NCBI GenBank assembly: GCA_964488435.1 | Contig: CAZAVR010000002.1 | Span: 1 to 36,347 of the forward strand | Reading direction: 5' to 3' | Length of the DNA: 36,347 bases | Origin: an uncultured Cytophagales bacterium | GTDB taxonomy: Bacteria > Bacteroidota > Bacteroidia > Cytophagales > Spirosomataceae | Part shown: one piece after another, positions 1,793 through 36,261 of the stretch | Position numbering within the stretch: position 1 is the first letter of the stretch | Layout of the letters: the number at the start of each line of letters is the position of its first letter | Made by a program: the position numbers and the translations under genes | The notes under the pieces: model-generated | The model's database searches: none | Told to the model about the DNA's origin: nothing | The model's input: the letters and a program-made list of their open reading frames with translations, nothing else

Positions 1793-1826
1793 TGAAGGGG
1801 TATGCGATGTTAAATTAGTGTAGTTT

Positions 1827-3128: not shown

Positions 3129-3129
3129 T

Positions 3130-19726: not shown

Positions 19727-20389
19727 TTGAAAAAGCTTAGCACCCTCATACAAAAAGAGGTCTCTCTGGAGTGGCGGCAAAGGTACGCGCTGAACGGGAT
19801 GCTGCTTTACATTGTCAGCACCATTTTCATCTGCTATCTGAATTTTAATCTCCGGCAGAACGTGCTTACGCCTCTGGTCTGGAACACGCTTTTTTGGATT
19901 ATCCTGATGTTCACTGCCGTCAATACCATCGGTAAGAGTTTTGCGCAGGAGAGACATGGCAGGCTGCTGTATTTCTACTCCCTGATGAGTCCTGGCCAGA
20001 TCATTCTTTCGAAGATCATTTACAATTCCTTCCTGATGCTGATCCTTTCCCTGACGGGTTTCGGTTTCTATATCTTCATAATGGGGAACCCTGTGGGTAA
20101 TGTGGCACTTTTTCTGGTGGCAATTGTTTTAGGTAGTATAGGGTTTGCGTCTACGCTGACTATCGTTTCTGCCATAGCAGCCAAGGCCGACGGCAACGCG
20201 GCACTGATGGCGATACTCAGTTTTCCTTTGATCATTCCCATGTTGCTTATGGTCATCAAGCTGGCGAAGAATGCCATGGACGACCTGGATGTTTCTGTCA
20301 GTAATGATGAGATACTTGTACTGCTGTCTATTGATGCGATAGTAATTGCTTTGTCACTTGTCCTTTTTCCATATATATGGAGATCATAA
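19727..20389 (+). CDS. ccmB: heme exporter permease CcmB
   Basis: 220 aa with 6 TM helices. The N-terminal LIQKEVSLEWRQRYALNGMLLY is the conserved CcmB start region, which forces use of the TTG at 19727. It is the first gene of the ccm operon. Confidence 0.8.
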   Translation: MKKLSTLIQKEVSLEWRQRYALNGMLLYIVSTIFICYLNFNLRQNVLTPLVWNTLFWIILMFTAVNTIGKSFAQERHGRLLYFYSLMSPGQIILSKIIYNSFLMLILSLTGFGFYIFIMGNPVGNVALFLVAIVLGSIGFASTLTIVSAIAAKADGNAALMAILSFPLIIPMLLMVIKLAKNAMDDLDVSVSNDEILVLLSIDAIVIALSLVLFPYIWRS

Positions 20390-20461
20390 GTAAAGGGGAG
20401 GGAAGGTGAGCCTGTTTTTAATGAAGTTGAATCGATTATTTAACCATAGCAAGAAGAAAAA

Positions 20462-21133
20462 TTGAAAGCGCTGAATTTGTCCTGGTGGAAACTTTTGACA
20501 TTGGTTATACTGGTTTATGTGTTGATCATGGGGCTTACAGGCGAGGTGCCGCGTCAGGCCATTCTTAATGAAACGGTAAGGAACCTATATTTCCATGTAA
20601 CCATGTGGTTCGGGATGGTGATTTTCCTTCTTATTTCACTGGTTTACGCCATTCGCTATTTGTCGACAAGTGATATTACTTTTGACGATAAGTCTGCGGA
20701 GTTTGTAAACATGGGCGTGCTTTTTGGCATCATCGGGTTTGTCACCGGCTCCTTGTGGGGAAATTATACATGGGGATCACCATTGCCTAAGGATCCCAAA
20801 ATACTGAGTGCAGCCATAGCGATGCTGGCTTATTTTGCCTACCTGGTTTTGCGGGGGGCATTCGAAGATGAACAGAAACGTGCGAGAATAACCAGCGTCT
20901 ATAACATTTTTGCTTTTGTAATTTTCAACGTGCTCATCTTCATATTGCCGCGGATGACGGATACGCTCCATCCCGGTCAGGGAGGAAACCCCGGATTCAG
21001 CATCTATGATAATGACAATATTATGAAGCCTGTTTTCTATCCGGCGGTTATAGGCTGGACGTTGCTGGGTGTTTGGATTACGACACTCCGGATAAGGTTA
21101 AAGATTGTTAACAGAGCCATAACGAATCATTGA
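20462..21133 (+). CDS. ccmC: heme exporter / heme-handling protein CcmC
   Basis: 223 aa. It has RNLYFHVTMWF (conserved His region) and a Trp-rich loop, SLWGNYTWGSPLPKDPK. The start is TTG at 20462. Confidence 0.8.
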   Translation: MKALNLSWWKLLTLVILVYVLIMGLTGEVPRQAILNETVRNLYFHVTMWFGMVIFLLISLVYAIRYLSTSDITFDDKSAEFVNMGVLFGIIGFVTGSLWGNYTWGSPLPKDPKILSAAIAMLAYFAYLVLRGAFEDEQKRARITSVYNIFAFVIFNVLIFILPRMTDTLHPGQGGNPGFSIYDNDNIMKPVFYPAVIGWTLLGVWITTLRIRLKIVNRAITNH

Positions 21134-21188
21134 AATCATTAATTTCGCCCGCTGAATGCGGTTTTTATACAGCAATTCAAGTAAAACG

Positions 21189-21416
21189 ATGCTTTTAAAT
21201 AAAATTCTCCGCAAATCGGTTGCATTGGCAGCCACGTTGCTTCTGACGGTTTCTGAATTGTTTGCCCAATCCGACATAGAAATGGCCGACCGACTCAGAG
21301 AAGATGGAAAGATATGGGTAGTGGTGGGAGTTATCGTATTGATTTTTTTGGGACTGGCTTTTTACCTGATTCGCCTGGATAGTAAGATCAGCGCCATCGA
21401 GAAGAAAATCAAGTAA
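21189..21416 (+). CDS. CcmD-like small membrane protein (Bacteroidetes-type)
   Basis: Sits in the ccmD position between ccmC and ccmE. It has a single TM helix (IWVVVGVIVLIFLGLAFYLI) followed by a charged tail (RLDSKISAIEKKIK). An alternative upstream ATG lies at 21156. Confidence 0.55.
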   Translation: MLLNKILRKSVALAATLLLTVSELFAQSDIEMADRLREDGKIWVVVGVIVLIFLGLAFYLIRLDSKISAIEKKIK

Positions 21417-21545
21417 GGCTTTCCGGATCTCGCTGCGCTGATTGATGGTTCGTGTTGTTGAGTTTCGGGCAAAATGGGGGCATCCGGCTTTAAGTGTCCG
21501 GGTACACGTCATCTGACTTTAGAGACATTTTTAGAAAAATACAGT

Positions 21546-21983
21546 ATGAAAAAGATCCATATTCTTCTCCTTGTGGTTATCGCGATAGCGGCGGGGATTA
21601 TTGTTTCAACGGCAGGAGATGCCAGTACGTACGTTACATTCTCCGAAGCCGAGCAGTTGAGAAAAGACGGCAGCCATGATGATATCCACGTGGTGGGAGA
21701 GTTAAAAAAGGGCCCGTCGGGAGAGATTCTCGGGATGAGCTATCAGCCTGAGATTGATCCTAACTATTTTACCTTTACACTTCTGGATAACAATCAGTTT
21801 GAGCAAAAAGTAGTATTCCAGAGCCCCAAGCCTCAGGATTTTGACAAATCAGAAAAGGTGGTGGTTATAGGTCACATGGAGAACGACGTGTTTCTGGCAA
21901 CAAAAATTCTTCTGAAATGTCCGTCGAAATACGAAAACGGAGAACTTGAAACTACTGAGCATAAAGCAACAACATCGAAATGA
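21546..21983 (+). CDS. ccmE: cytochrome c maturation heme chaperone CcmE (CxxxY variant)
   Basis: An N-terminal TM anchor (MKKIHILLLVVIAIAAGIIV) is followed by an OB-fold-like domain. The C-terminal KILLKCPSKYE aligns with the E. coli LAKHDENY heme-binding motif but has Cys in place of His. I chose the ATG at 21546, internal to the track ORF that starts at 21474. Confidence 0.85.
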   Translation: MKKIHILLLVVIAIAAGIIVSTAGDASTYVTFSEAEQLRKDGSHDDIHVVGELKKGPSGEILGMSYQPEIDPNYFTFTLLDNNQFEQKVVFQSPKPQDFDKSEKVVVIGHMENDVFLATKILLKCPSKYENGELETTEHKATTSK

Positions 21984-22031
21984 GTTAGCCGCGGGGTAAG
22001 GCTTTCTCTCCTCTCAAATTATTAACCGGAT

Positions 22032-24638
22032 ATGTATCATACAGCGATAGGAAATTTTGGCCATTTATTTGTGATCATAGCGTTCGTGACGGCGTTAATG
22101 GCTACCTACTCCTATATCAGGGCCGGAATAGCTGCGGAGCTTTCTCCCGCGCATTCGACATGGAGGAATTTTGCCAGATGGACGTTTTATACCCATTCTG
22201 CTGCGGTTTTGGGTATCGTGTTTTGCCTCTACTGGATCATAATGAACCATTACTTCGAGTATCATTATGCCTGGGATAATTCGTCGTTATCGCTCCCTAC
22301 CGGTTATATCATTTCGAGTTTCTGGCAGGACCAGGAAGGAAGTTTCCTCCTGTGGATTTTCTGGAATGTGGTACTTGGACTTGTACTGATCGTTACCAAT
22401 AAGTCCTGGGAATCACCTGTGATGGCCGTTTTTGCGCTGGTACAGGCTTTTCTGGCTTCCATGATTCTGGGTGTAGTCATACCCGGTCTGGACCTCAAGA
22501 TCGGATCTACGCCGTTTTTGTTGCTGAGAGAATCCATGCCTGATTTGCCGGTTTGGAAGATGGATCCGAATTTCATACCCAAAGACGGAAATGGGCTGAA
22601 CCCGCTCCTGCAAAATTACTGGATGGTCATTCACCCCCCGACTTTGTTTCTGGGTTTTGCGACGACATTGATCCCCTTTTCGTTTGCCATTGCCGGCTTA
22701 TGGCTTAGAAAATCGCATGACTGGATCCGTCCGGCATTGCCCTGGGCCTTGTTTTCTGCGCTTGTGCTGGGTGTTGGAATACTTATGGGGGCGTATTGGG
22801 CTTATGAAACCCTGAATTTCGGTGGATACTGGAACTGGGATCCTGTAGAGAATTCGTCATTCGTGCCCTGGCTCGTACTTATCGCAGCCATTCATACGAT
22901 GATCATCTCCAGGAGAAATGCTACAGCCCTTAAGACATCTTTTATACTCACTATAGCAAGTTTCCTTCTTATCCTCTACTCCACATTCATGACCAGAAGT
23001 GGAATATTGGGTAATGCATCTGTACACTCATTTACAGACTTGGGGCTTTCGGGGCAGTTGCTTATTTACTTGCTGACGTTTACCATCGCAGCCATTGCGT
23101 TGCTCGTTTTCAGGTGGAAGGATTTGCCGGATGATAAAGAAGAAGTGTCGAGCTACTCGCAGGAGTTCTGGATCTTTATAGGTGCTGTGGTGTTATGTCT
23201 TTCCGGGTTTCAGATATTGTTCACCACCTCTTTCCCGGTATATAATAAGATCGCCGAATTGTTCGGATTCATTCTCAACCTGGCGCTACCGACAGATCAG
23301 ATCGCACACTATAATAAGTTCCAGCTCTGGTTTTTTGTACTGGTAGTCATTCTTACAGGCGTAGGGCAGTTTTTCTGGTGGAAAAGGATAGGGAAGAGCA
23401 ATTTTAACGCGCTCTATCCTCCCTTGTTGATTACACTCATCCTGAGTTCCGCAGTGATTGTTTTGTGTGAGATCAAGACTTTTTCCTACATGATGTTGCT
23501 TACAGCGTCCATTTTCGCGGTTGTGGCCAATGGAACCATCATGTTCGGGATTTTCAAGGGAAACTACAAGCTTTCGGGAGGTGCCGTTACACATATAGGT
23601 GTGGCATTGATGTTGATCGGCGTACTGTTTTCGTCCGGGTACAGCAAAGTGGTTTCCATCAATAATTCCGGCCTGATGATTTCCAGGTCAGATGAATTTA
23701 CAGCCAACGACAATAAGGAGAATAAGGAGAATGTGACGCTTTGGCTCAATAAGCCTGAGAAAATGGGGGATCTTCTGCTTACCTGGCGCGATGTATACGT
23801 AGAGCCGCGCCATATCCCGGAGTATATACCCAAAAGCTGGGTAGAGCATATCGAAAAGGATTTCAGGGCGGTGGCATTAAGGGATATCACTGTTAAAGAG
23901 AAGACCTACTATAAAAAGGGTGATACACTTGAACTGTACCCGGAAAATTTCTACTACGAAATTGAGTACAGAGAACCTTCAGGCAAAGTATTTACACTGT
24001 TTCCACGGGCGCAGATCAACGACAGGATGGGACTGGTTTCCTCACCGGATATCCGTCGCATGGCCGAAAAGGATTTGTATACCTATGTAAGTATGTCAAC
24101 CAATCCGACTGCAGAAACACAGTGGGGGCCGACGGAAGACTTTAAGGTGTCGATGAAAGATACCTTCTTCGTCAACGACTATGTGGCGATTTTGGATAAT
24201 GTGGTCAGGACAGAAACCGTTGACGGTGTCACGCTGAACGAAGGAGATGCGGCTGTAAAAGCGATTATTCGGATTCTGGATAACGAGAAAGAATATATTG
24301 TTACTCCTTCATTCATCATCCGGAACAGCACGATTGGCCGGAAAGCGGAAATAAGTAAGGAGCTGGGTCTTAGAGTTCAATTCAAAGAAATAGATCCCAA
24401 TACGGGCACCTTTACTTTCTCTGTCAATGCTACTCAAAGGGATTTCATTGTCTTGAAGGCAATAGAAAAGCCACTGATTAATATCTTGTGGCTGGGTACT
24501 TTTGTACTTATTATAGGATTCACCATGGCCACCACCAGGCGATTCAGAGAATTCGTGAAGGGAAGGGACAGAGATATTCTGGCAGGCAACACCAAAGCTG
24601 GCGGATCAAAAGCAAAGCAGGTCGTCTCCGCCAAGTAG
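22032..24638 (+). CDS. ccmF: cytochrome c heme lyase / heme-handling protein CcmF (intact copy)
   Basis: 868 aa and polytopic, with the WWD motif FGGYWNWDPVENSSFVPW and a long hydrophilic C-terminal domain ending in a final TM helix. Codons 140-868 are repeated at 26294..28485. Confidence 0.9.
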   Translation: MYHTAIGNFGHLFVIIAFVTALMATYSYIRAGIAAELSPAHSTWRNFARWTFYTHSAAVLGIVFCLYWIIMNHYFEYHYAWDNSSLSLPTGYIISSFWQDQEGSFLLWIFWNVVLGLVLIVTNKSWESPVMAVFALVQAFLASMILGVVIPGLDLKIGSTPFLLLRESMPDLPVWKMDPNFIPKDGNGLNPLLQNYWMVIHPPTLFLGFATTLIPFSFAIAGLWLRKSHDWIRPALPWALFSALVLGVGILMGAYWAYETLNFGGYWNWDPVENSSFVPWLVLIAAIHTMIISRRNATALKTSFILTIASFLLILYSTFMTRSGILGNASVHSFTDLGLSGQLLIYLLTFTIAAIALLVFRWKDLPDDKEEVSSYSQEFWIFIGAVVLCLSGFQILFTTSFPVYNKIAELFGFILNLALPTDQIAHYNKFQLWFFVLVVILTGVGQFFWWKRIGKSNFNALYPPLLITLILSSAVIVLCEIKTFSYMMLLTASIFAVVANGTIMFGIFKGNYKLSGGAVTHIGVALMLIGVLFSSGYSKVVSINNSGLMISRSDEFTANDNKENKENVTLWLNKPEKMGDLLLTWRDVYVEPRHIPEYIPKSWVEHIEKDFRAVALRDITVKEKTYYKKGDTLELYPENFYYEIEYREPSGKVFTLFPRAQINDRMGLVSSPDIRRMAEKDLYTYVSMSTNPTAETQWGPTEDFKVSMKDTFFVNDYVAILDNVVRTETVDGVTLNEGDAAVKAIIRILDNEKEYIVTPSFIIRNSTIGRKAEISKELGLRVQFKEIDPNTGTFTFSVNATQRDFIVLKAIEKPLINILWLGTFVLIIGFTMATTRRFREFVKGRDRDILAGNTKAGGSKAKQVVSAK

Positions 24639-26293
24639 GAGTTAGTGACTACAGTGGAACACTGTCCTGCTTAGCCTGTCGAAGCACGGGGGGGCATGTC
24701 GTCGACCGAAGCGGAGACAAGTCCTTCGACCGTGCGACGGACCGCAAACTCAGTCCTTCGATAAACTCAGTCCTTCGATAAACTCAGTCCTTCGATAAAC
24801 TCAGGATGGCATGAAATATGTGGTAGAAAAATAACACCCATGAAGGGCAAGGCACCTACGGTTAGTGACTACAGTGGAACACTGTCCTGCTGAGCCTGTC
24901 GAAGCACGGGGGGGCATGTCGACCCTCCTATTTGTGCATAAGTAATAGCAGATCTCACGCAGACGGCTAGTCCAAGCGGACTGAAGGAGGCTTTAGTCGA
25001 GATGAGCAACCCTGCTATATAAGGGCATATCTAAGAAAGATACGCATTATTTCTGAGAATTCCAAGAAAAACGGTTTGAAATAATTTCAGTCCGGATAAA
25101 GTCAGTCAGCTTATCTTCCGGCAGGCCGCACTGTCAGTACCACTCCAGGATTCCCTGGTTGAGAATTCCGGTGCTTCTGCCTTTGAGGCTGCGTCCTAAA
25201 AACGGCGAATTGACAGATTTGGATTCGCTGCGGTCAAATACCCATTCTTCTTCGGGATCAAAGAAAGTAAGATTCGCTTCTGCTCCTTCTTCAATGGAAA
25301 GTGAGGTCAGGCCGAGAATTCTTCTGGGCTGAGAGGTGAACTTTTCAAGAAGGTCTTCCAAAGGCAATTTCGCATATTGTAATGCCACCGAGAATGCGGT
25401 CTCTAACCCGGTGATACCGAATTCTGCCAGGTCAAATTCCAGATTCTTACTTTCTTCCGCATGCGGACTGTGATCGGACACAATAGCATCTATGGTGCCC
25501 TCCTGTAAACCCTTTCTCAATGCTTTGACATCTTGCTCCGACCTGAAGGGAGGACTTACTTTCAGGTTGGTATCGAAAGAGATCAGTGCCGAGTCATCGA
25601 AAGCGAGCTGATGGGCAGCAATATCACATGTTACCGGAAGCCCTTTCTGTTTGGCGGCCTTGATAAGTCTGACCGATCCGGACGAAGATATAAGCGAGAA
25701 GTGAAGCAGTGGCGGGTGCGATCCTTTATGATTACTTGTTTCCAGGGAGTATTCCAGCAGCATGAGATCACGGGTGATCATCATCTCCTCTGACAGTGAC
25801 GGAATGCCCTTAAAGCCGAGGAGCGTGCTGGTGCGTCCTTCGTGCATTTGTCCAAAAGCCGACAGTTGCCGGTCGTCCGGTCGGTTGATGAGCAAGCCGT
25901 TAAAAGGGCGGAGATAAAGAAGCGATTTGAGAAGGATATCGGCATTCGAAATAGGATTTTCTCCGTCAGTAAATGCTACCGCACCGGTATGGTGCATATC
26001 TATCATTTCTGTAAAATCCACGCCCTTCGCCATTTTTGTTACAGACGAAGTAGGGAGTAGTGTGACCGGGCTGTCCTGTCCGGCTGATAGTATGTATTTT
26101 AGCGTGTCTTTGGAATCGACTACAGGATGCGTATTCGGAAGTAGAAGAATTCCGGTAAATCCTCCCCGGGCAGCGGCTTTTTGCAGAGAGCTGATGTCCT
26201 CAACAAGCTCGTGTCCGGGGTCCCTGAGTGCCACCCTCATATCAAGCCAGCCCGGAGACACAGACATCCCTTTTTTTTCGATTATCTCAATTC
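22447..26293. repeat. tandem segmental duplication, copy 1 (3847-bp unit)
   Basis: Matches 26294..30140 at a constant offset of 3847. Six track ORF pairs have identical translations at that offset. The 495-bp intergenic stretch and both ends were compared by eye and are identical. Confidence 0.93.
24641..24924. repeat. composite intergenic repeat element: two ~64-bp direct repeats flanking a 17-bp x 3.5 tandem array
   Basis: GTTAGTGACTACAGTGGAACACTGTCCTGCT(T/G)AGCCTGTCGAAGCACGGGGGGGCATGTCG(TCG)ACC occurs at 24641..24707 and 24861..24924, with one mismatch and one 3-nt indel. Between them, AAACTCAGTCCTTCGAT is repeated head-to-tail at 24746, 24763 and 24780, with a partial fourth unit ending at 24804. 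Confidence 0.9.
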
Positions 26294-26297
26294 CTTT
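25134..26297 (-). pseudogene. 5'-truncated copy of the dihydroorotase-like gene (codons 42-428 only)
   Basis: Identical to 28981..30144. The upstream 41 codons and promoter are replaced at the junction by antisense ccmF sequence. The track's 431-aa ORF (25134..26429) is therefore a chimera with 44 foreign N-terminal residues. Confidence 0.85.
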
Positions 26298-28485
26298 TCT
26301 GGCTTCCATGATTCTGGGTGTAGTCATACCCGGTCTGGACCTCAAGATCGGATCTACGCCGTTTTTGTTGCTGAGAGAATCCATGCCTGATTTGCCGGTT
26401 TGGAAGATGGATCCGAATTTCATACCCAAAGACGGAAATGGGCTGAACCCGCTCCTGCAAAATTACTGGATGGTCATTCACCCCCCGACTTTGTTTCTGG
26501 GTTTTGCGACGACATTGATCCCCTTTTCGTTTGCCATTGCCGGCTTATGGCTTAGAAAATCGCATGACTGGATCCGTCCGGCATTGCCCTGGGCCTTGTT
26601 TTCTGCGCTTGTGCTGGGTGTTGGAATACTTATGGGGGCGTATTGGGCTTATGAAACCCTGAATTTCGGTGGATACTGGAACTGGGATCCTGTAGAGAAT
26701 TCGTCATTCGTGCCCTGGCTCGTACTTATCGCAGCCATTCATACGATGATCATCTCCAGGAGAAATGCTACAGCCCTTAAGACATCTTTTATACTCACTA
26801 TAGCAAGTTTCCTTCTTATCCTCTACTCCACATTCATGACCAGAAGTGGAATATTGGGTAATGCATCTGTACACTCATTTACAGACTTGGGGCTTTCGGG
26901 GCAGTTGCTTATTTACTTGCTGACGTTTACCATCGCAGCCATTGCGTTGCTCGTTTTCAGGTGGAAGGATTTGCCGGATGATAAAGAAGAAGTGTCGAGC
27001 TACTCGCAGGAGTTCTGGATCTTTATAGGTGCTGTGGTGTTATGTCTTTCCGGGTTTCAGATATTGTTCACCACCTCTTTCCCGGTATATAATAAGATCG
27101 CCGAATTGTTCGGATTCATTCTCAACCTGGCGCTACCGACAGATCAGATCGCACACTATAATAAGTTCCAGCTCTGGTTTTTTGTACTGGTAGTCATTCT
27201 TACAGGCGTAGGGCAGTTTTTCTGGTGGAAAAGGATAGGGAAGAGCAATTTTAACGCGCTCTATCCTCCCTTGTTGATTACACTCATCCTGAGTTCCGCA
27301 GTGATTGTTTTGTGTGAGATCAAGACTTTTTCCTACATGATGTTGCTTACAGCGTCCATTTTCGCGGTTGTGGCCAATGGAACCATCATGTTCGGGATTT
27401 TCAAGGGAAACTACAAGCTTTCGGGAGGTGCCGTTACACATATAGGTGTGGCATTGATGTTGATCGGCGTACTGTTTTCGTCCGGGTACAGCAAAGTGGT
27501 TTCCATCAATAATTCCGGCCTGATGATTTCCAGGTCAGATGAATTTACAGCCAACGACAATAAGGAGAATAAGGAGAATGTGACGCTTTGGCTCAATAAG
27601 CCTGAGAAAATGGGGGATCTTCTGCTTACCTGGCGCGATGTATACGTAGAGCCGCGCCATATCCCGGAGTATATACCCAAAAGCTGGGTAGAGCATATCG
27701 AAAAGGATTTCAGGGCGGTGGCATTAAGGGATATCACTGTTAAAGAGAAGACCTACTATAAAAAGGGTGATACACTTGAACTGTACCCGGAAAATTTCTA
27801 CTACGAAATTGAGTACAGAGAACCTTCAGGCAAAGTATTTACACTGTTTCCACGGGCGCAGATCAACGACAGGATGGGACTGGTTTCCTCACCGGATATC
27901 CGTCGCATGGCCGAAAAGGATTTGTATACCTATGTAAGTATGTCAACCAATCCGACTGCAGAAACACAGTGGGGGCCGACGGAAGACTTTAAGGTGTCGA
28001 TGAAAGATACCTTCTTCGTCAACGACTATGTGGCGATTTTGGATAATGTGGTCAGGACAGAAACCGTTGACGGTGTCACGCTGAACGAAGGAGATGCGGC
28101 TGTAAAAGCGATTATTCGGATTCTGGATAACGAGAAAGAATATATTGTTACTCCTTCATTCATCATCCGGAACAGCACGATTGGCCGGAAAGCGGAAATA
28201 AGTAAGGAGCTGGGTCTTAGAGTTCAATTCAAAGAAATAGATCCCAATACGGGCACCTTTACTTTCTCTGTCAATGCTACTCAAAGGGATTTCATTGTCT
28301 TGAAGGCAATAGAAAAGCCACTGATTAATATCTTGTGGCTGGGTACTTTTGTACTTATTATAGGATTCACCATGGCCACCACCAGGCGATTCAGAGAATT
28401 CGTGAAGGGAAGGGACAGAGATATTCTGGCAGGCAACACCAAAGCTGGCGGATCAAAAGCAAAGCAGGTCGTCTCCGCCAAGTAG
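26294..28485 (+). pseudogene. 5'-truncated copy of ccmF (codons 140-868 only)
   Basis: Identical to 22447..24638. It lacks the first 139 codons (the N-terminal TM helices) and the operon context. The track's 852-aa ORF (25927..28485) gets its first ~123 residues from the antisense strand of the dihydroorotase-like fragment. Confidence 0.85.
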
Positions 28486-28487
28486 GA

Positions 28488-28771
28488 GTTAGTGACTACA
28501 GTGGAACACTGTCCTGCTTAGCCTGTCGAAGCACGGGGGGGCATGTCGTCGACCGAAGCGGAGACAAGTCCTTCGACCGTGCGACGGACCGCAAACTCAG
28601 TCCTTCGATAAACTCAGTCCTTCGATAAACTCAGTCCTTCGATAAACTCAGGATGGCATGAAATATGTGGTAGAAAAATAACACCCATGAAGGGCAAGGC
28701 ACCTACGGTTAGTGACTACAGTGGAACACTGTCCTGCTGAGCCTGTCGAAGCACGGGGGGGCATGTCGACC
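28488..28771. repeat. second copy of the composite intergenic repeat element (within duplication copy 2)
   Basis: Identical to 24641..24924 at offset 3847. The 17-mer array is at 28593..28651. Confidence 0.9.
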
Positions 28772-28980
28772 CTCCTATTTGTGCATAAGTAATAGCAGAT
28801 CTCACGCAGACGGCTAGTCCAAGCGGACTGAAGGAGGCTTTAGTCGAGATGAGCAACCCTGCTATATAAGGGCATATCTAAGAAAGATACGCATTATTTC
28901 TGAGAATTCCAAGAAAAACGGTTTGAAATAATTTCAGTCCGGATAAAGTCAGTCAGCTTATCTTCCGGCAGGCCGCACTG

Positions 28981-30267
28981 TCAGTACCACTCCAGGATTC
29001 CCTGGTTGAGAATTCCGGTGCTTCTGCCTTTGAGGCTGCGTCCTAAAAACGGCGAATTGACAGATTTGGATTCGCTGCGGTCAAATACCCATTCTTCTTC
29101 GGGATCAAAGAAAGTAAGATTCGCTTCTGCTCCTTCTTCAATGGAAAGTGAGGTCAGGCCGAGAATTCTTCTGGGCTGAGAGGTGAACTTTTCAAGAAGG
29201 TCTTCCAAAGGCAATTTCGCATATTGTAATGCCACCGAGAATGCGGTCTCTAACCCGGTGATACCGAATTCTGCCAGGTCAAATTCCAGATTCTTACTTT
29301 CTTCCGCATGCGGACTGTGATCGGACACAATAGCATCTATGGTGCCCTCCTGTAAACCCTTTCTCAATGCTTTGACATCTTGCTCCGACCTGAAGGGAGG
29401 ACTTACTTTCAGGTTGGTATCGAAAGAGATCAGTGCCGAGTCATCGAAAGCGAGCTGATGGGCAGCAATATCACATGTTACCGGAAGCCCTTTCTGTTTG
29501 GCGGCCTTGATAAGTCTGACCGATCCGGACGAAGATATAAGCGAGAAGTGAAGCAGTGGCGGGTGCGATCCTTTATGATTACTTGTTTCCAGGGAGTATT
29601 CCAGCAGCATGAGATCACGGGTGATCATCATCTCCTCTGACAGTGACGGAATGCCCTTAAAGCCGAGGAGCGTGCTGGTGCGTCCTTCGTGCATTTGTCC
29701 AAAAGCCGACAGTTGCCGGTCGTCCGGTCGGTTGATGAGCAAGCCGTTAAAAGGGCGGAGATAAAGAAGCGATTTGAGAAGGATATCGGCATTCGAAATA
29801 GGATTTTCTCCGTCAGTAAATGCTACCGCACCGGTATGGTGCATATCTATCATTTCTGTAAAATCCACGCCCTTCGCCATTTTTGTTACAGACGAAGTAG
29901 GGAGTAGTGTGACCGGGCTGTCCTGTCCGGCTGATAGTATGTATTTTAGCGTGTCTTTGGAATCGACTACAGGATGCGTATTCGGAAGTAGAAGAATTCC
30001 GGTAAATCCTCCCCGGGCAGCGGCTTTTTGCAGAGAGCTGATGTCCTCAACAAGCTCGTGTCCGGGGTCCCTGAGTGCCACCCTCATATCAAGCCAGCCC
30101 GGAGACACAGACATCCCTTTTTTTTCGATTATCTCAATTCCTTTTTCGGCGGGAATTGCCGGTGCGATACGGGAAATTTTTCCGTTTTCGACGAGGAGAT
30201 CGACCACTTTGTTGTGGTGGGCAGATGGTTTATCGATGATCCTAACCGAACGAATCAGAATACGCAT
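28981..30267 (-). CDS. dihydroorotase-like amidohydrolase (intact copy), probably a non-catalytic PyrC'-type
   Basis: 428 aa, collinear with class I dihydroorotases (SPGWLD..., AAARGGFTGILLLPNTHPV, AFTDGE, VTCDIAAHQL, IVSDHSPH). The metal-binding DxHxH is replaced by DMRVALRDPG. Confidence 0.8.
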   Translation of the reverse strand: MRILIRSVRIIDKPSAHHNKVVDLLVENGKISRIAPAIPAEKGIEIIEKKGMSVSPGWLDMRVALRDPGHELVEDISSLQKAAARGGFTGILLLPNTHPVVDSKDTLKYILSAGQDSPVTLLPTSSVTKMAKGVDFTEMIDMHHTGAVAFTDGENPISNADILLKSLLYLRPFNGLLINRPDDRQLSAFGQMHEGRTSTLLGFKGIPSLSEEMMITRDLMLLEYSLETSNHKGSHPPLLHFSLISSSGSVRLIKAAKQKGLPVTCDIAAHQLAFDDSALISFDTNLKVSPPFRSEQDVKALRKGLQEGTIDAIVSDHSPHAEESKNLEFDLAEFGITGLETAFSVALQYAKLPLEDLLEKFTSQPRRILGLTSLSIEEGAEANLTFFDPEEEWVFDRSESKSVNSPFLGRSLKGRSTGILNQGILEWY

Positions 30268-30342
30268 AACTAGGGAATATAACGGTCACTTAAAACACGG
30301 TCTATAAATGAGCTGATTATGAGACCGGCGGGTAATAACGAC

Positions 30343-30366
30343 AAAAAAAAAGCCCCTTCCGGAGCT
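30343..30366 (-). terminator. rho-independent terminator of gcvH
   Basis: On the minus strand: AGCTCC-GGAA-GGGGCT (6-bp stem including one G-U pair, with a GGAA tetraloop) immediately followed by T9. It lies 8 nt downstream of the gcvH stop. Confidence 0.65.
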
Positions 30367-30373
30367 AACCTGC

Positions 30374-30754
30374 TTATTGTCCGATAAGCTTTTTATAATC
30401 CCCGGCTGAAAGCAGGTTCTCGTAAGCAGTTACGTCAGACACTTTTACTTTCACCATCCAGCCTTTATGATAAGGATCGCTATTGACAAGTTCCGGTGCT
30501 CCGTCCAGTTCAGGATTGATCTCGAGGATCTCACCCGCCATCGGAAGAAAGAGATCTGAAACCGTTTTTACCGCTTCCACCGACCCGAAAACATCTCCCT
30601 CCTCCAGTGTTTCTCCTATGGTTGGAATATCTATATAGACGATGTCTCCCAGTTCATTTTGGGCGTGTTCAGTGATTCCAACCACAGCTATATCGCCTTC
30701 CAAGCGCACCCATTCGTGGTCTTCTGTATATTTTAGTTCTTCAGGAAATGACAT
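30374..30754 (-). CDS. gcvH: glycine cleavage system H protein (lipoyl carrier)
   Basis: 126 aa. LKYTEDHEWVRLEGDIAVVGITEHAQNELGDIVY and the lipoyl-lysine motif SVEAVKTVSD are canonical GcvH. Confidence 0.95.
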   Translation of the reverse strand: MSFPEELKYTEDHEWVRLEGDIAVVGITEHAQNELGDIVYIDIPTIGETLEEGDVFGSVEAVKTVSDLFLPMAGEILEINPELDGAPELVNSDPYHKGWMVKVKVSDVTAYENLLSAGDYKKLIGQ

Positions 30755-31027
30755 ATAGATTTGGAATGAAGAATTTCGGGTTATGATTCAATGGCGCAAT
30801 GTTATATAAGATTAGCGAACTTTCCAAACGAAATACGAATATGATTTCGGGCGGAGGTAACTGTCCTGCCGGAGATGGCGAGCGTGGAGATCAGAGGATT
30901 TGGGGGGCTTCATTGAACTCCCGTTTCGGTAGGTTTCACTGTGGTTTATAATCAGTAAAGTGTGAAAACAAACTTGGTGATCTCAAATTCCGTATCTTTG
31001 TATTTTACAAGAATTACAGCGATTGTT

Positions 31028-32101
31028 ATGTTAGATAAGTTAGAGTCCATCAAGGAGCGTTTCGGGGAAGTAGAGCAGCAGATTATGCAACCGGAAGTTG
31101 TATCCGACTCTAAACGGTTTTCGAAGTTGAGCAAGGAGTACAAGGATCTGGGTCGTATAGTGGAACAGTATCAACAGTATCAGAAGGTTCTGAATAATAT
31201 AGCAGATGCAAAGGCGATCATTGCTGAAGAAAGCGATGAGGAGCTGCGCGAAATGGCGAAGGAAGAACTTAACGAACTGGTACCACGCCAGACGGAAATG
31301 GAGCAGGTGATCAAAGAGCTTTTGATCCCTAAAGATCCGAACGACAGCAGAAATATCATACTCGAAGTCAGGGCAGGTACCGGTGGGGATGAGGCGGCTA
31401 TTTTTGCCGGCGATCTGTTTCGAATGTATCAGCGTTTTATAGAGCGCACGGGCTTGAGGCTGTCAGTGTTGGATTTCACGGAAGGCTCTACCGGCGGATA
31501 CAAGGAAATTGTGTGTAAGGTGGAAGGCGAAGATGTGTATGCCAAACTCAAGTTCGAGTCAGGGGTGCACAGAGTGCAGCGGGTACCGGTGACCGAGTCA
31601 CAGGGAAGGGTTCATACCTCTGCTGCAACTGTGGCTGTATTGCCCGAGGCAGAGGAAGTGGATGTGGATGTAAGTTGGAATGACATCCGGATTGACACCT
31701 TTAACTCATCGGGTGCAGGTGGACAGTCCGTAAACACAACCTACTCAGCGGTGAGGCTCACACATATTCCTTCGGGGCTGGTGGTCAGTTGCCAGGACGA
31801 GCGTTCACAGCTGAAAAACAAGGAACGGGCGATGTCTGTGCTTCGTTCTCGTTTGTTCGAGATTGAGCGGCAGAAGCAGCATGATGCAATCAGTTCTCAG
31901 CGAAAGTCGATGGTGGGCTCCGGAGACAGATCTGATAAAATCCGCACGTATAATTATCCTCAAAGCCGTGTGACGGATCATCGTATCGGTTATACTGTTT
32001 ATAATTTGCCGGCGGTAATGGACGGAGAGATTGGCGATTTCATAGAGAATCTAAGGATTGCTGAAACAGCAGAAAGGATGCAGGAGGGAGAGATGGTGTA
32101 A
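31028..32101 (+). CDS. prfA: peptide chain release factor 1
   Basis: The RF1 tripeptide region RVPVTESQGRVHTS and the GGQ motif SSGAGGQSVNTT are present. I chose the ATG at 31028 (MLDKLESIKERF), internal to the track ORF that starts at 30962. Confidence 0.93.
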   Translation: MLDKLESIKERFGEVEQQIMQPEVVSDSKRFSKLSKEYKDLGRIVEQYQQYQKVLNNIADAKAIIAEESDEELREMAKEELNELVPRQTEMEQVIKELLIPKDPNDSRNIILEVRAGTGGDEAAIFAGDLFRMYQRFIERTGLRLSVLDFTEGSTGGYKEIVCKVEGEDVYAKLKFESGVHRVQRVPVTESQGRVHTSAATVAVLPEAEEVDVDVSWNDIRIDTFNSSGAGGQSVNTTYSAVRLTHIPSGLVVSCQDERSQLKNKERAMSVLRSRLFEIERQKQHDAISSQRKSMVGSGDRSDKIRTYNYPQSRVTDHRIGYTVYNLPAVMDGEIGDFIENLRIAETAERMQEGEMV

Positions 32102-32143
32102 AACTTCGTGTCTTAATATTTCGATTGGTCAAAAGCTTTAATA

Positions 32144-32428
32144 ATGTCCTTAACTGAATCAACTCTTTTTAAACTTTCCGATCAGCAGATTTCTTCTGAT
32201 CTTGCCGGAGAAAAAGTTATTCTGAACCATGATAAAGGCGCCTACTATGCGCTGGATGAGGTGGGTGCGCTTGTGTGGAGCGAGCTGGAGAAGGGTACAG
32301 CAAGCCTGGGCACACTCAAGGACCGGATTATGGAATACTATGAGATAGATCCAGAAACACTGCACGCTGATCTGACGGAACTCCTGAGAGAGCTCGTGGA
32401 AGAGAAGCTCGTGGAGAAAGTCGTGTAG
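32144..32428 (+). CDS. PqqD-family RiPP recognition element (lasso peptide B1-like chaperone)
   Basis: 94 aa with the length and pattern of PqqD/RRE proteins (ILNHDKGAYYALDEVGALVWSELEKG...LKDRIMEYYEIDPETLHADLTELLRELVEEKLV). It is directly followed by a B2-like gene after a 3-nt gap. Confidence 0.8.
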   Translation: MSLTESTLFKLSDQQISSDLAGEKVILNHDKGAYYALDEVGALVWSELEKGTASLGTLKDRIMEYYEIDPETLHADLTELLRELVEEKLVEKVV

Positions 32429-32431
32429 CTT

Positions 32432-32869
32432 ATGGTTTCACTCAGGGCGAATTACCGTAGATGGAAGACACTGACAGGAGATCAGAAAAGGGCTTTTCTG
32501 CGTGCCTCGGTGTTGTTGTCTGTGATAGGCCTTGGATTAAGGATTCTGCCTTTTTCACGTTTCAGGAAGTGGTATCATCGCCTGGCTTCGTCTTCAGTAA
32601 GCAGGGAGACAGAGGCCGAGGAGCTGGAGCGGGTATCCTGGGCGGTGCGTACCGCCGCTCATCATCTTCCCTTTACACTTTTGTGCCTTCCGCAGGCGCT
32701 GACACTAAAGTATATGCTTAGGCATGAGGCCGGTTTGAATTTGCATATCGGTGTTCAGAAAGATGCAGTGCAGGGTTTTATGGCGCACGCCTGGGTTGAA
32801 AAAGACAGTAGGACCATTATAGGAGATTTGCCTGAAATGAACTTTCAGCCTTTGTGGATATGGAATTAG
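32432..32869 (+). CDS. transglutaminase-like cysteine protease (lasso peptide B2-like leader peptidase)
   Basis: 145 aa. TLLCLPQALTLKYMLRHEAGLNLHIGV...FMAHAWVEKDSRTIIGD carries the Cys / His / Asp arrangement of McjB-C-terminal/B2 proteins. Confidence 0.8.
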   Translation: MVSLRANYRRWKTLTGDQKRAFLRASVLLSVIGLGLRILPFSRFRKWYHRLASSSVSRETEAEELERVSWAVRTAAHHLPFTLLCLPQALTLKYMLRHEAGLNLHIGVQKDAVQGFMAHAWVEKDSRTIIGDLPEMNFQPLWIWN

Positions 32870-32926
32870 GACTGTTTGGGAACACTTCGACTCGTCTGAC
32901 AATATTTAGATAGAACCGCTTTATCA

Positions 32927-33853
32927 ATGCATCATTACACGGCTTATGGGTTAAACTTTGCTTCTGATATCGAACTTGTCGAATGTGTACGCACGGATGC
33001 TGCACAGACAGACTTCGTGATCAGATCAGGTACGTTTCCCATCCCTGAACTTACACCGGTTAATATCAGAAGGCGCGGTGGGCAGGCCGCCTGCGCGATC
33101 GGGCCTGACGGAGCCTGCTATATACATTGGGAGGGCGTTGCGACTTTCAGGGCAGTGGAAGGGCGTCTGCTGGAAGTGCAGGCTTACACGAACCATGGAG
33201 ATGTACTAAGCCTTTTTACCGTTTGCGAGGCATTGGGATTGATTCTTTTTCAGCGACAATATTTCCTTCTCCATGCCAGTGCTGTACAGGTAGGCCATGA
33301 AGCGTGGGTATTTATTGCCAATCCGGGCACAGGTAAATCAACAACGTCGGCAGCATTTGTTAAGGCAGGCTGTCCTTTGTTAAGCGACGATCTGACTGCG
33401 ATTGTTTTCGATGACACGCAATCAGCCTACGTACAGCCGGGTTACCCTCAGCTGAAAATCTGGGAGTCTGCGGTTTCGGGGCTGGGCTATGATCCTGATC
33501 GTCTGCCCCTGGTTACAGAAGGTGTCCGGAAATATGCGTTGTATCCCAGTGAAAATTTTCCTTCGTCTCCGGTTAGATTGACAAAGATTTTCTTCCTGGA
33601 GCCTACCGGTGGCCCCACCGTTCCGGAGGAGATGAGTCCGGGGATTTTCCCTGTAGAATGCCTGAAACACTTTTCTCTTTCCAACTTCTTTATCAAGGCG
33701 GAGCATCAGGTAAGGTTTTTCAAACAGAGCGTGATGTGTGCCCGCTCGAGTACCATTTTCCGTCTATCCAGGCCGGACGGTTTCGCTGCGCTGGAGCAAT
33801 GGGTAGAGCGGTGTATTGAGGAGGCTTATTCTTCTGAAAAAACGGATAAGTAA
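32927..33853 (+). CDS. HPr-kinase-like (HprK-related) serine kinase
   Basis: 308 aa. LLHASAVQVGHEAWVFIANPGTGKSTTSAAFVKAGCPLLSDDLTAIV matches the P-loop plus (L/V)xxDD core of the HPr kinase C-terminal fold, as seen in lasso-peptide kinases. Confidence 0.75.
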   Translation: MHHYTAYGLNFASDIELVECVRTDAAQTDFVIRSGTFPIPELTPVNIRRRGGQAACAIGPDGACYIHWEGVATFRAVEGRLLEVQAYTNHGDVLSLFTVCEALGLILFQRQYFLLHASAVQVGHEAWVFIANPGTGKSTTSAAFVKAGCPLLSDDLTAIVFDDTQSAYVQPGYPQLKIWESAVSGLGYDPDRLPLVTEGVRKYALYPSENFPSSPVRLTKIFFLEPTGGPTVPEEMSPGIFPVECLKHFSLSNFFIKAEHQVRFFKQSVMCARSSTIFRLSRPDGFAALEQWVERCIEEAYSSEKTDK

Positions 33854-33858
33854 TTTTC

Positions 33859-34959
33859 ATGACCGATCTGAATATTTCTCCCGAACTTTCTTTGCTGCTT
33901 TCTGCCTGTCTGGCTGAGAAGCCTGCCCCGCCACCTGTAGCGGCTGTGGACTGGGAGGTATTCATACAACTCTCCAGGCAAAACGGGGTACTGGCTTTGG
34001 TAGCAGACCGCCTGGGAGATCTCGCTCCGGGCGAAATAGCGAGACGGATAACCAATGAGGCCGTTCTTCAGGCGATGCATAATCTCATGGCGATGCGGAG
34101 AATGCTGGAAGTGAAGAAGTGTTTGTCTGAGGCCGGTGTTCGTGCTTTTCCGATGAAAGGTCCGCTTTGGGGGTGGCTTTATTATAATAATACAGGATTG
34201 CGCAGTTTCGGGGATCTCGACTTTTTTATAGAGACGGGTGATCTGGTCAAAGGCGTGGACGCTTTGAAAACACTGGGATTCAGAATAGATGATTACAGAA
34301 CATATCTCCTGAGCGGCCATAATTTGTTCGAGGCGTACGTGAGGACTGACTATCAACTTGCGTTGACACCTGAAAAAGAGGGGGACGTCAAACTGATTGA
34401 GCTGCAATGGCGGAATACCTATCCAAGGTTCGGACGGTTTTATACATATACAGAACTGATGGATCGCCCTTCTGCGTATCTGATCAATGGTGAAGAGGTT
34501 TTGATTCCGCGTCGGGAGTATCAATTCCTGATGATAATCATCCATCATGGGCTTATCGAACAATGGGCACGCCTGAAGTATCTTGCTGATCTGGTCTTTT
34601 TTCTTCGTAAAGAGTCAGCGGATTTAGACTGGGATTTTATATGGTCTGAATCTCAGAAGAAAGGACTGCGGAAAATGTTGCTGTTAGGCTTGTATCTGGC
34701 CGAGAGATTTTCCGGACAATCCTACACACACGCTCCTGTTTCTTTCGAAACCCTTAAAGGATATCCGTTCTCCGCCTTGCTGAAGGCCTGGGAGGAAGGA
34801 GAATCCAAAAGTACTACGAAGTCAGCCAGGATTTTCAGCTATAGCTTTAGATATAAACAGGGTTTGCGCCATAAAGCAGCGCTTTTGTCTGCACACTTCA
34901 GCTACCTGACGGAATGGAAGCTTCTTTGGCATAAGGCCAGGTGGTACAGCAGGAAATAG
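33859..34959 (+). CDS. nucleotidyltransferase-fold protein (NTP_transf_5 / 'uncharacterised nucleotidyltransferase' type)
   Basis: 366 aa. AFPMKGPLWGWLYYNNTGLRSFGDLDFFI is the characteristic K-G...R-x-F-x-D-(L/I)-D motif of this family. It starts 5 nt after the kinase gene. Confidence 0.7.
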   Translation: MTDLNISPELSLLLSACLAEKPAPPPVAAVDWEVFIQLSRQNGVLALVADRLGDLAPGEIARRITNEAVLQAMHNLMAMRRMLEVKKCLSEAGVRAFPMKGPLWGWLYYNNTGLRSFGDLDFFIETGDLVKGVDALKTLGFRIDDYRTYLLSGHNLFEAYVRTDYQLALTPEKEGDVKLIELQWRNTYPRFGRFYTYTELMDRPSAYLINGEEVLIPRREYQFLMIIIHHGLIEQWARLKYLADLVFFLRKESADLDWDFIWSESQKKGLRKMLLLGLYLAERFSGQSYTHAPVSFETLKGYPFSALLKAWEEGESKSTTKSARIFSYSFRYKQGLRHKAALLSAHFSYLTEWKLLWHKARWYSRK

Positions 34960-35569: not shown

Positions 35570-35845
35570 ATGACACATACGTTAACCATAGAAACAAGTA
35601 ATTCTACTTACTTTGAGCAATTCAAAAGACTTGCCCGGAAGTTAGGTGTAACTGCTATTGAGAAGCACGAAGATACTACTGCTTCGTCTATTGCCGGAAA
35701 AGAGATAGGACCCGAATCAGCCGATGAGAAAGAAGAGCTTTTTTATAGCCTGTTTGGTAGTTGGGAAGGTGATGAAACCGGAGATGAACTTGTTAGACAA
35801 ATATATTCGGCCAGGGTAAGCAATACGCGCGATATTGAATTATGA
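35570..35845 (+). CDS. putative type II antitoxin partnered with the PIN-domain toxin
   Basis: 91 aa and acidic. The C-terminal LFGSWEGDETGDELVRQIYSARVSN resembles antitoxins found upstream of Bacteroidetes PIN toxins. Its stop overlaps the downstream start in an ATGA. Confidence 0.6.
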   Translation: MTHTLTIETSNSTYFEQFKRLARKLGVTAIEKHEDTTASSIAGKEIGPESADEKEELFYSLFGSWEGDETGDELVRQIYSARVSNTRDIEL

Positions 35846-36261
35846 GCAAGTATCTCTTGGATACAAATATCTGTATTCATATCATCAAGGGCGAATTCAA
35901 CCTTAAGGCTAAAATTCAAAAAATTCGCTTTCAATCCTGCTATATATCAGAGATCACGGTTGCAGAGCTTTTGTATGGAGTTGCCAATAGTGTTCCTGAT
36001 AGAAAAGCTATCAACCTTCAAAGAGTATTAGACTTAAGAACCTCGTTTTCTGAACAGACAATTTCAATAAGTGAATGTTTGGAGGAATATGGCCAACAGA
36101 AAGCCCGGCTACGAAGTATTGGCAGAAGGGTAGAGGATTTAGATATTTTTATTGGCAGTACGGCGATCGTAAAGGGATTGACACTTGTAACCAGAAATAC
36201 AAAGGATTTCATCAATATGGCTGGTATCAATTTGGAAAACTGGATTGATGAACCATCATAA
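35842..36261 (+). CDS. vapC: PIN-domain ribonuclease toxin, VapC-like
   Basis: 139 aa. The N-terminal YLLDTNICIHIIKG (first acidic PIN residue), an internal acidic residue region, and the C-terminal LTLVTRNTKDF are typical of VapC. Confidence 0.8.
   Translation: MSKYLLDTNICIHIIKGEFNLKAKIQKIRFQSCYISEITVAELLYGVANSVPDRKAINLQRVLDLRTSFSEQTISISECLEEYGQQKARLRSIGRRVEDLDIFIGSTAIVKGLTLVTRNTKDFINMAGINLENWIDEPS

What the first reader, a model, noticed from the sequence alone, without database searches (positions are those of the whole stretch)
22447..30145. Apparently base-perfect 3847-bp tandem duplication spanning the ccmF 3' part, an intergenic repeat element and most of a dihydroorotase-like gene
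Sequence 22447..26298 recurs at 26294..30145 at a constant offset of 3847. The support has three parts. First, six ORF pairs in the track have identical translations at that offset (23286/27133, 23564/27411, 24434/28281, 24488/28335, 25533/29380, 25842/29689). Second, I read the whole intergenic stretch 24639..25133 against 28486..28980 and found no difference. Third, both ends match. The left breakpoint is in ccmF codon 139/140 and the right breakpoint is in codon 41/42 of the minus-strand dihydroorotase-like gene. The junction reads ...AATTC-CTTTT-CTGGC..., and CTTTT is present at both parental sites (22447..22451 and 30141..30145). This is the signature of microhomology-mediated illegitimate recombination or slippage. 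As expected for a tandem duplication, an intact ccmF (left) and an intact pyrC-like gene (right) are preserved. Truncated copies of both lie between them. The duplicated unit contains no complete gene. Only the intergenic repeat element is fully doubled, so simple gene-dosage selection is an unlikely driver. Zero divergence points to a very recent or unstable population-level event, or to an assembly artefact.
Basis: seen in the sequence. Interest (0 to 1): 0.8.

Follow-up and report, generated by a model that had tools for sequence, protein, structure and literature searches.

The report
Perfect 3.8-kb tandem duplication, unverified
A 3,847-base stretch of this bacterial contig is repeated head-to-tail without a single difference, joined at a 5-base overlap. 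It looks like an ordinary, recent replication or recombination accident with no sign of selection, and without the raw reads an assembly error cannot be ruled out.

Summary
Bases 22447-26298 equal 26294-30145 at offset 3847, with 3852 identical bases and one CTTTT kept at the junction. The window is a complete 36,347-bp NCBI contig of an unnamed Spirosomataceae bacterium (Cytophagales), and the duplication is in the deposited record. The unit holds ccmF codons 139-868, a 495-bp orphan intergenic insert, and codons 42-428 of a dihydroorotase-like gene. That gene lacks the HxH zinc ligands. Intact ccmF and the intact pyrC-like gene remain at the outer edges. No complete gene is doubled. The two nearest relatives have a single copy and no intergenic insert.

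- **For a real DNA event:** a 5-bp microhomology arises at a blunt join only 0.56% of the time, and there is no flanking homology, N-gap or contig end.
- **Against fixation:** a Logan assembly of run SRR9107545 carries the same strain at 100% identity. Its contig crosses the right boundary without a branch, although it breaks exactly at a 31-mer repeat 1.4 kb away. No other sequence in the databases carries the junction.

My estimate is about 0.57 for a real, recent, probably neutral and unstable microhomology-mediated duplication. An assembly or library artefact gets about 0.33. Interest is low.

The parts
22447..26293 (.). Copy 1 of the 3847-bp duplicated unit
   Evidence: Perfect identity to 26294-30140
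26294..30140 (.). Copy 2 of the 3847-bp duplicated unit
22447..22451 (+). CTTTT microhomology at the left parental breakpoint (ccmF codons 139-140)
26294..26298 (+). CTTTT at the novel junction. The diagnostic sequence is TCGATTATCTCAATTCCTTTTCTGGCTTCCATG at 26278-26310.
30141..30145 (+). CTTTT microhomology at the right parental breakpoint (codons 41-42 of the minus-strand DHOase-like gene)
22032..24638 (+). Intact ccmF (868 aa), last gene of a ccmB-C-D-E-F System I cluster at 19727-24638
   Evidence: Pfam Cytochrom_C_asm and CcmF_C, NCBIfam CcmF/NrfE. It is 91% identical to the CcmF of L002 and L133.
24639..25133 (.). Intergenic insert, copy 1. It holds two 61-nt direct repeats (24641-24701 and 24861-24921, 1 mismatch) and a 17-bp x 3.5 tandem array (24746-24804).
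   Evidence: It is absent from relatives, where the ccmF and pyrC-like stops lie 0-6 bp apart. No Rfam match.
25134..26298 (-). 5'-truncated DHOase-like copy (codons 42-428). The ORF continues across the junction to 26429. It was called as a 416-aa protein (25134-26384, P0124) whose first 29 residues are antisense-ccmF sequence.
26294..28485 (+). 5'-truncated ccmF copy (codons 139/140-868). The frame is open upstream to 25927. It was called as a 692-aa protein (26407-28485, P0006, equal to CcmF 177-868).
28486..28980 (.). Intergenic insert, copy 2 (61-nt repeats at 28488-28548 and 28708-28768, 17-bp array at 28593-28651)
28981..30267 (-). Intact dihydroorotase-like gene (428 aa) downstream of gcvH (30374-30754, minus strand). 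The HxH zinc ligands are replaced by RxA.
   Evidence: NCBIfam and Pfam. Alignment to Aquifex DHOase 3d6n: DIHVHLRDPG versus DMRVALRDPG. The same change is seen in all orthologues examined.

Best explanation
This is a genuine, very recent tandem duplication of 3,847 bp in the chromosome of an uncultured or unnamed Spirosomataceae bacterium. It most likely arose by RecA-independent, microhomology-mediated illegitimate recombination. One route is template switching or strand slippage at a replication fork. The other is unequal sister-chromatid joining. Either would act between two CTTTT pentamers 3,847 bp apart, one in ccmF codons 139-140 and one in codons 41-42 of the convergent DHOase-like gene.

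The product is A-B-B-C. Intact ccmF and the intact DHOase-like gene sit at the outer edges. Two 5'-truncated, promoterless copies lie back to back at the junction. Because no complete gene is doubled, the event is probably neutral or slightly costly. With 3.8 kb of perfect homology it should be lost readily by homologous recombination, so it is most likely a polymorphic, transient variant captured by the assembly rather than a fixed trait.

**Shown:** the sequence structure, the microhomology, the lack of flanking homology and the single-copy state in relatives.

**Inferred:** that the junction exists in the DNA, the mechanism, the neutrality and the instability.
For: - **Structure.** Exact head-to-tail repeat with one retained CTTTT.
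- **Microhomology.** A total junction microhomology of 5 bp or more occurs in only 0.56% of 291,071 simulated blunt duplications of the de-duplicated window. This argues against blunt concatenation of overlapping contigs.
- **No other trigger.** There is no extended similarity around the two parental sites, no IS or integrase in the window, no N run and no contig end nearby.
- **Deposited record.** The truncated and chimeric ORFs P0006 and P0124 are on record from an NCBI contig of 36,347 bp, the length of the window.
- **Ancestral state.** Relatives L002 (Telluribacter MAG) and L133 (Logan SRR30535860) have ccmBCDEF followed by the convergent pyrC-like gene and gcvH, all in single copy.
- **Literature.** Microhomology or no-homology junctions on 7-13 kb bacterial amplifications, and the instability of tandem repeats, are well documented (PMC11721125; PMC3411829; bioRxiv 10.64898/2026.05.22.727201).
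- **My own knowledge of assemblers.** Overlap and de Bruijn assemblers join only through overlaps far longer than 5 bp. A 5-bp junction in a contig therefore normally means that reads or k-mers spanned it.
Against: - No read-level evidence is available.
- Logan contig L001 (run SRR9107545, 100% identical to 28709-30775) runs through the right boundary at 30145/30146 without breaking. The same contig ends exactly where a 31-mer shared by the two 61-nt repeats starts (28708-28738), so graph branches do break contigs there (Logan method, PMC12424806). The junction was therefore absent or pruned in that run.
- Only three proteins of the window also occur in Logan, all from that run. SRR9107545 may therefore be the very data the contig came from.
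- No other database entry carries the junction.
- A neutral 3.8-kb perfect duplication should rarely be the consensus of an environmental population.
Confidence: 0.57

Rival explanations
1. The duplication is an assembly or library artefact and the organism has a single copy. Three routes are possible. An assembler may have traversed a loop in the graph once too often. Its repeat resolver may have mis-estimated copy number at low coverage. Or the junction may come from chimeric molecules made in vitro, such as template switching during MDA or PCR, which also uses microhomology.
For: - The independent Logan assembly of a run with the identical strain shows no branch at the right boundary.
- That run has low, patchy coverage. 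Its contigs are about 2 kb, and a 324-bp gap separates L001 from L134. Coverage-based loop counting would be unreliable under these conditions.
- The junction is found nowhere else.
- Perfect identity of the copies is what graph-based assembly produces regardless of biology.
- The duplication has no evident selective value.
Against: - Blunt mis-joins would show 5 bp or more of microhomology only 0.56% of the time.
- The junction is in the contig interior, with no Ns.
- Individual chimeric reads are rare and random. They normally do not survive k-mer abundance filters unless the template was amplified from very few molecules (my own knowledge).
- At low coverage the Logan pipeline could have lost a real junction, because it drops k-mers seen once and clips short tips.
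Confidence: 0.33
2. The duplication is real and is kept by selection. One possibility is selection for a doubled dose of the lineage-specific 495-bp intergenic element, as an sRNA, a terminator or a binding-site array. Another is selection for a product of one of the chimeric ORFs at the junction.
For: - The intergenic insert is the only feature doubled completely, and it is unique to this lineage.
- Both junction ORFs stay open and were called as genes.
Against: - The insert has no Rfam match and its fold is not clearly better than shuffles (z = -2.0 on the + strand and -1.1 on the - strand).
- It has no homologue in 134 related loci or in viral contigs.
- The truncated genes face away from each other without their native promoters.
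- The truncated CcmF lacks its first 139-176 residues, and the DHOase-like protein lacks catalytic ligands in any case.
- The junction is absent from the Logan run.
Confidence: 0.05
3. Junction reads exist but come from a different structure. Candidates are an excised 3,847-bp circle of the unit, or a higher-copy amplification in a minority of cells. The assembler then rendered this as exactly two copies.
For: A head-to-tail junction sequence is identical for a circle, a duplication and an n-fold amplification. Copy-number heterogeneity is typical of bacterial amplifications (PMC11721125).
Against: The unit has no replication or recombinase gene. There is no evidence either way on copy number.
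Confidence: 0.05

Closest known systems
RecA-independent, microhomology or short-junction tandem duplications of bacterial chromosomes (Salmonella, E. coli, S. aureus and Pseudomonas amplification literature: PMC3411829, PMC11721125, bioRxiv 10.64898/2026.05.22.727201)
   Same: Both are head-to-tail repeats of a few kb. Both have a few bases of identity at the two parental sites with one copy kept at the junction, and neither has an IS or rrn flank. Intact genes remain at the edges and truncated copies lie inside. Instability is expected.
   Different: The cases in the literature were found under selection for a gene inside the unit, or by deep population sequencing. Here no complete gene is inside the unit, the setting is an environmental draft or MAG contig, and the junction has not been verified physically. 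Five bp lies at the lower edge of the 5-25 bp range quoted for MMEJ.
False duplications in genome assemblies (loop over-traversal, uncollapsed overlaps)
   Same: The copies are perfectly identical, no biological rationale is apparent, and an independent assembly does not reproduce the junction.
   Different: The junction has a non-random microhomology, lies in the contig interior and has no gap. Uncollapsed overlaps usually sit at contig or scaffold ends, or join bluntly (my own knowledge).
Bacteroidota System I cytochrome c maturation cluster (ccmB, ccmC, CcmD_alt, ccmE, ccmF)
   Same: Gene order and Pfam or NCBIfam matches agree. CcmF of 860-870 aa is typical of Spirosomataceae.
   Different: Nothing unusual apart from the duplicated 3' part.
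Inactive dihydroorotase-like proteins (PyrC'-type pseudo-DHOases)
   Same: It has a full-length type I DHOase fold by sequence (E = 1.6e-72 to Aquifex DHOase 3d6n), but the HxH zinc ligands are replaced. This replacement is conserved across the family's orthologues.
   Different: No partner, such as ATCase, and no function was tested here. The gene sits after gcvH, not in a pyr operon.

Membership tests
Microhomology-mediated (non-HR) tandem duplication | Direct head-to-tail repeat at a constant offset with no intervening sequence | tested here: met
   3852 identical bases at offset 3847
Microhomology-mediated (non-HR) tandem duplication | A short identity at both parental breakpoints, retained once at the junction and longer than chance | tested here: met
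   CTTTT at 22447, 26294 and 30141. P(5 bp or more) = 0.0056 for blunt joins.
Microhomology-mediated (non-HR) tandem duplication | No extended flanking repeat (IS, rrn, REP; 35 bp or more at 92% identity or more) that could drive RecA recombination | tested here: met
   No similarity beyond the pentamer within 40 bp either side. No other long repeat in the window. No transposase.
Microhomology-mediated (non-HR) tandem duplication | Single-copy ancestral arrangement in relatives | tested here: met
   L002 and L133 carry one ccmF and one pyrC-like gene, convergent
Microhomology-mediated (non-HR) tandem duplication | The junction physically exists in the DNA (spanning reads, about 2x depth, PCR) | not testable with these tools
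   No reads are available. Indirect evidence is negative or inconclusive: Logan contig L001 is unbranched at 30145/6, and there is no junction-bearing protein fragment elsewhere.
Assembly false duplication | Located at a contig or scaffold end, next to a gap, or joined bluntly | tested here: not met
   Interior of the contig (22.4 kb and 6.2 kb from the ends), no N, 5-bp microhomology
Assembly false duplication | The junction is not reproduced by an independent assembly of the same organism | tested here: inconclusive
   The Logan SRR9107545 contig crosses the right boundary unbranched. However, that run is low-coverage, and Logan drops singleton k-mers and clips tips.
Assembly false duplication | Read depth over the two copies is half that of the flanks | not testable with these tools
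   No reads
CcmF/NrfE heme lyase (System I) | Cytochrom_C_asm core plus the CcmF C-terminal region, in a ccm operon | tested here: met
   PF01578 at 99.5 bits. PF16327 at 27.7 bits, just under its 28.7 cutoff, for the intact copy. TIGR00353 E = 5e-53, below its trusted cutoff. ccmB, C, D and E lie upstream.
Catalytically active type I dihydroorotase (PyrC) | HxH zinc-binding motif (DxHVHxRxPG) and downstream His ligands | tested here: not met
   DMRVALRDPG aligns to DIHVHLRDPG of 3d6n, and HIQHVS aligns to HFSLIS. The same holds in orthologues. TIGR00857 is passed (304.7 against 279), but every equivalog model falls below its cutoff.

The most novel reading that the evidence does not exclude
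The duplication is real, fixed in this population and maintained by selection. It would be maintained because it doubles a lineage-specific 495-bp non-coding element, which has 61-nt direct repeats and a 17-bp tandem array and was inserted between two convergent genes. That element would then act as a dosage-sensitive RNA or binding-site array, or as a recombination or slippage hotspot that itself promotes local rearrangements.
Probability: 0.04. Interest if true: 0.45.

Novelty: new member of a known kind. Interest (0 to 1): 0.2.

Why it matters
If real, this is one more natural example of a microhomology-mediated tandem duplication, caught at zero divergence in an environmental Cytophagales genome. 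It would show that such neutral, unstable variants can reach assembly-level frequency outside the laboratory. That is a modest point and opens no new question.

If it is an artefact, it matters only for data hygiene. The public record then carries two spurious gene calls: a 692-aa CcmF fragment and a 416-aa chimeric 'dihydroorotase'. Both are already propagated into protein databases as cluster representatives (P0006 and P0124).

Tried and rejected
- **Exact look-ups of intact CcmF, GcvH, the chimeric 416-aa protein and P0001 in the contig index.** None is on record. The NCBI contig itself is not retrievable, so its title, assembler and coverage stay unknown.
- **Search for protein fragments spanning the left breakpoint (CcmF residues 80-200).** Only fragments of 89% identity or less from other species were found.
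- **Search with the chimeric N-terminus.** One unrelated partial hit.
- **JGI metagenome scan with CcmF.** No conspecific contig; the best hit is about 80% aa identity. The GTDB scan gave 74% at best for the pyrC-like protein.
- **SRR9107545 in the literature.** No paper mentions it.
- **The intergenic insert as a known RNA or mobile element.** No Rfam hit at gathering score or at E up to 1. There are no terminal inverted repeats of note, no copies elsewhere in the window, in 134 loci or in viral contigs, and no plausible ORF.
- **Homologous-recombination origin.** Rejected: there is no flanking repeat.
- **Blunt concatenation of overlapping contigs.** Unlikely, P = 0.0056.
- **A planted or synthetic duplication in the window.** Rejected, because the truncated ORFs are on record from the NCBI contig.
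- **Papers on tandem-duplication misassembly in MAGs.** None in the library.
Full report
**1. The observation**

A base-by-base comparison of the window with itself at offset 3847 gives one run of identities, 22447-26298 = 26294-30145. It is 3852 nt long with no mismatch, and the window has no N. The repeat finder returns the same register.

The three relevant sequences are:
- left parental site: GGTACAGG-CTTTT-CTGGC
- right parental site: CAATTC-CTTTT-TCGGC
- junction: CAATTC-CTTTT-CTGGC

The unit is therefore 3847 bp, with a 5-bp microhomology kept once at the junction.

**2. What the window is**

- **Gene content.** ORFs with Pfam and NCBIfam matches give a System I cytochrome c maturation cluster. 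It comprises ccmB (19727-20389), ccmC (20462-21133), CcmD_alt (21156-21416), ccmE (21474-21983) and ccmF (22032-24638, 868 aa).
- **Convergent genes.** On the minus strand lie gcvH (30374-30754) and a dihydroorotase-like gene (28981-30267, 428 aa). prfA follows on the plus strand. The rest of the window is ordinary chromosomal content: gcvT, FeoB, a FUSC protein, a PqqD/transglutaminase-like cluster and a PIN toxin. There are no transposases or integrases.
- **Source.** The protein database holds the 868-aa CcmF from an NCBI contig whose length is exactly 36,347 bp. The window is therefore a complete deposited contig. The same contig contributes P0006 (692 aa, equal to CcmF 177-868) and P0124 (416 aa, a chimeric N-terminus plus DHOase-like residues 42-428). 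The duplication is thus in the public record and was not introduced later.
- **Organism.** It is an unnamed member of Spirosomataceae (Cytophagales). The closest sequences are a Telluribacter MAG contig (L002, JBEBSO010000043) and a Logan contig (L133, SRR30535860). Both are about 77% identical in DNA, 91% in CcmF and 74-75% in the DHOase-like protein.

**3. Anatomy of the duplication**

The layout is A-B-B-C. B contains ccmF codons 139-868, a 495-bp intergenic stretch and codons 42-428 of the DHOase-like gene. Read from left to right, the duplicated region holds:
- intact ccmF
- intergenic copy 1
- the truncated DHOase-like copy (minus strand)
- the junction
- the truncated ccmF copy (plus strand)
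- intergenic copy 2
- the intact DHOase-like gene

The two truncated copies are back to back, each cut off from its own promoter. By chance both frames stay open across the junction, giving ORFs at 25134-26429 and 25927-28485. No complete gene is doubled.

**4. Ancestral state**

L002 and L133 have the same synteny (ccmBCDEF, then the convergent pyrC-like gene and gcvH, then prfA), each gene once. In both, the two stop codons are 0-6 bp apart. The duplication is therefore derived. So is the 495-bp intergenic insert. The ccmF/pyrC-like adjacency is confined to this small clade.

**5. Real event or artefact**

*For a DNA-level event*
- In 291,071 simulated blunt duplications of the de-duplicated window, only 0.56% had a total junction microhomology of 5 bp or more. 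Simple concatenation of overlapping contigs is therefore unlikely.
- There is no extended homology at the breakpoints, no gap and no contig end.
- From my own knowledge of assemblers, none joins sequences through a 5-bp overlap. The junction must have been covered by reads or k-mers.

*Against, or at least against fixation*
- Logan run SRR9107545 contains the same strain. L001 equals 28709-30775 and L134 equals 31100-33415, both at 100% identity.
- Logan uses k = 31, discards k-mers seen once, simplifies the graph with Minia3 and keeps every 31-mer only once (PMC12424806).
- L001 ends at 28709. That is exactly where the 31-mer shared by the two 61-nt repeats (28708-28738) would force a branch. 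Yet it passes 30145/30146 without a break. A retained junction path would have split it there.
- The weight of this evidence is limited. The run is thinly covered: contigs are about 2 kb, 324 bp are missing between L001 and L134, and only three of the window's proteins occur in Logan at all. A real junction could therefore have dropped out. I take the result as roughly 3:1 against the junction being present at full frequency in that run. That ratio is my own rough estimate, not a computed value.
- No other database sequence carries the junction.

*On zero divergence.* The perfect identity of the copies is uninformative if the contig came from a de Bruijn graph, because both copies are then read from the same edge.

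**6. Mechanism and consequences**

Taken as real, the event belongs to the well-described class of RecA-independent, microhomology-mediated tandem duplications.
- Junctions with microhomology or no homology occur on 7-13 kb amplifications (PMC11721125).
- Short direct repeats were found at all confirmed spontaneous duplications in Salmonella (PMC3411829).
- In the classification of bioRxiv 10.64898/2026.05.22.727201, this case is 'no HR signature, MH = 5 bp'.
- The literature stresses that such repeats are unstable.

Nothing in the unit suggests a benefit. The intergenic insert has no Rfam match, no significant fold, no coding potential and no homologue. The truncated genes lack their promoters. 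The most likely status is a neutral, transient variant.

**7. Verdict**

The structure and microhomology are right. The choice between a real event and an artefact stays open, and the zero-divergence argument is weaker than stated.
- Probabilities: real microhomology-mediated duplication about 0.57, assembly or library artefact about 0.33, selected amplification about 0.05, other junction-bearing structure about 0.05.
- This is an ordinary instance of a known kind of event and interest is low.
- The decisive test is trivial once the reads are in hand: junction k-mer counts and depth.

Noticed in passing
window 24639-25133 (and its copy at 28486-28980): A 495-bp non-coding insert lies between the convergent stops of ccmF and the pyrC-like gene. 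It is absent from both close relatives, where the stops are 0-6 bp apart. It contains two 61-nt direct repeats 220 bp apart (1 mismatch) and a perfect 17-bp x 3.5 tandem array (AAACTCAGTCCTTCGAT). It has no Rfam, viral or related-locus match. Its origin and function are unknown.
   Followed up: partly
window 28981-30267 (- strand); orthologues in L002-L081 and L133: The 'dihydroorotase' has the zinc-binding HxH replaced (DMRVALRDPG against DIHVHLRDPG in Aquifex DHOase) and a further His ligand lost. The same substitution is present in every Spirosomataceae orthologue checked. The gene always follows gcvH. It looks like a conserved pseudo-DHOase of unknown role.
   Followed up: partly
window 25134-26384 (-) and 26407-28485 (+): The public protein collection holds the two junction products as separate entries, both from this contig only. 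They are P0124 (416 aa, a chimeric DHOase-like protein that is the representative of its 90% cluster) and P0006 (692 aa, a CcmF fragment). If the duplication is an artefact, these are spurious database proteins.
   Followed up: yes
window 32144-34959 (+): A four-gene cluster comprises PqqD-like (94 aa), transglutaminase-like Transglut_core3 (145 aa), a 308-aa protein with no Pfam hit, and NTP_transf_5 (366 aa). It is conserved in L002 and L133. It resembles the leader-recognition and protease parts of lasso-peptide or other RiPP clusters, but no cyclase or precursor was looked for.
   Followed up: no
window 590-4395 (+): Three consecutive ORFs of 400, 433 and 421 aa have no Pfam match. The second and third are paralogues (34% identity over 381 aa) with hydrophobic N-termini.
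   Followed up: partly
window 35570-36261 (+): A 91-aa ORF overlaps by 4 bp with a 139-aa PIN-domain ORF at the contig end. It is probably a VapBC-type toxin-antitoxin pair.
   Followed up: no
window 22032-24638; L002; L133: CcmF is 91% identical to that of the two nearest relatives, whereas the adjacent DHOase-like protein is only 74-75% identical. The two neighbouring genes show markedly different evolutionary rates.
   Followed up: no
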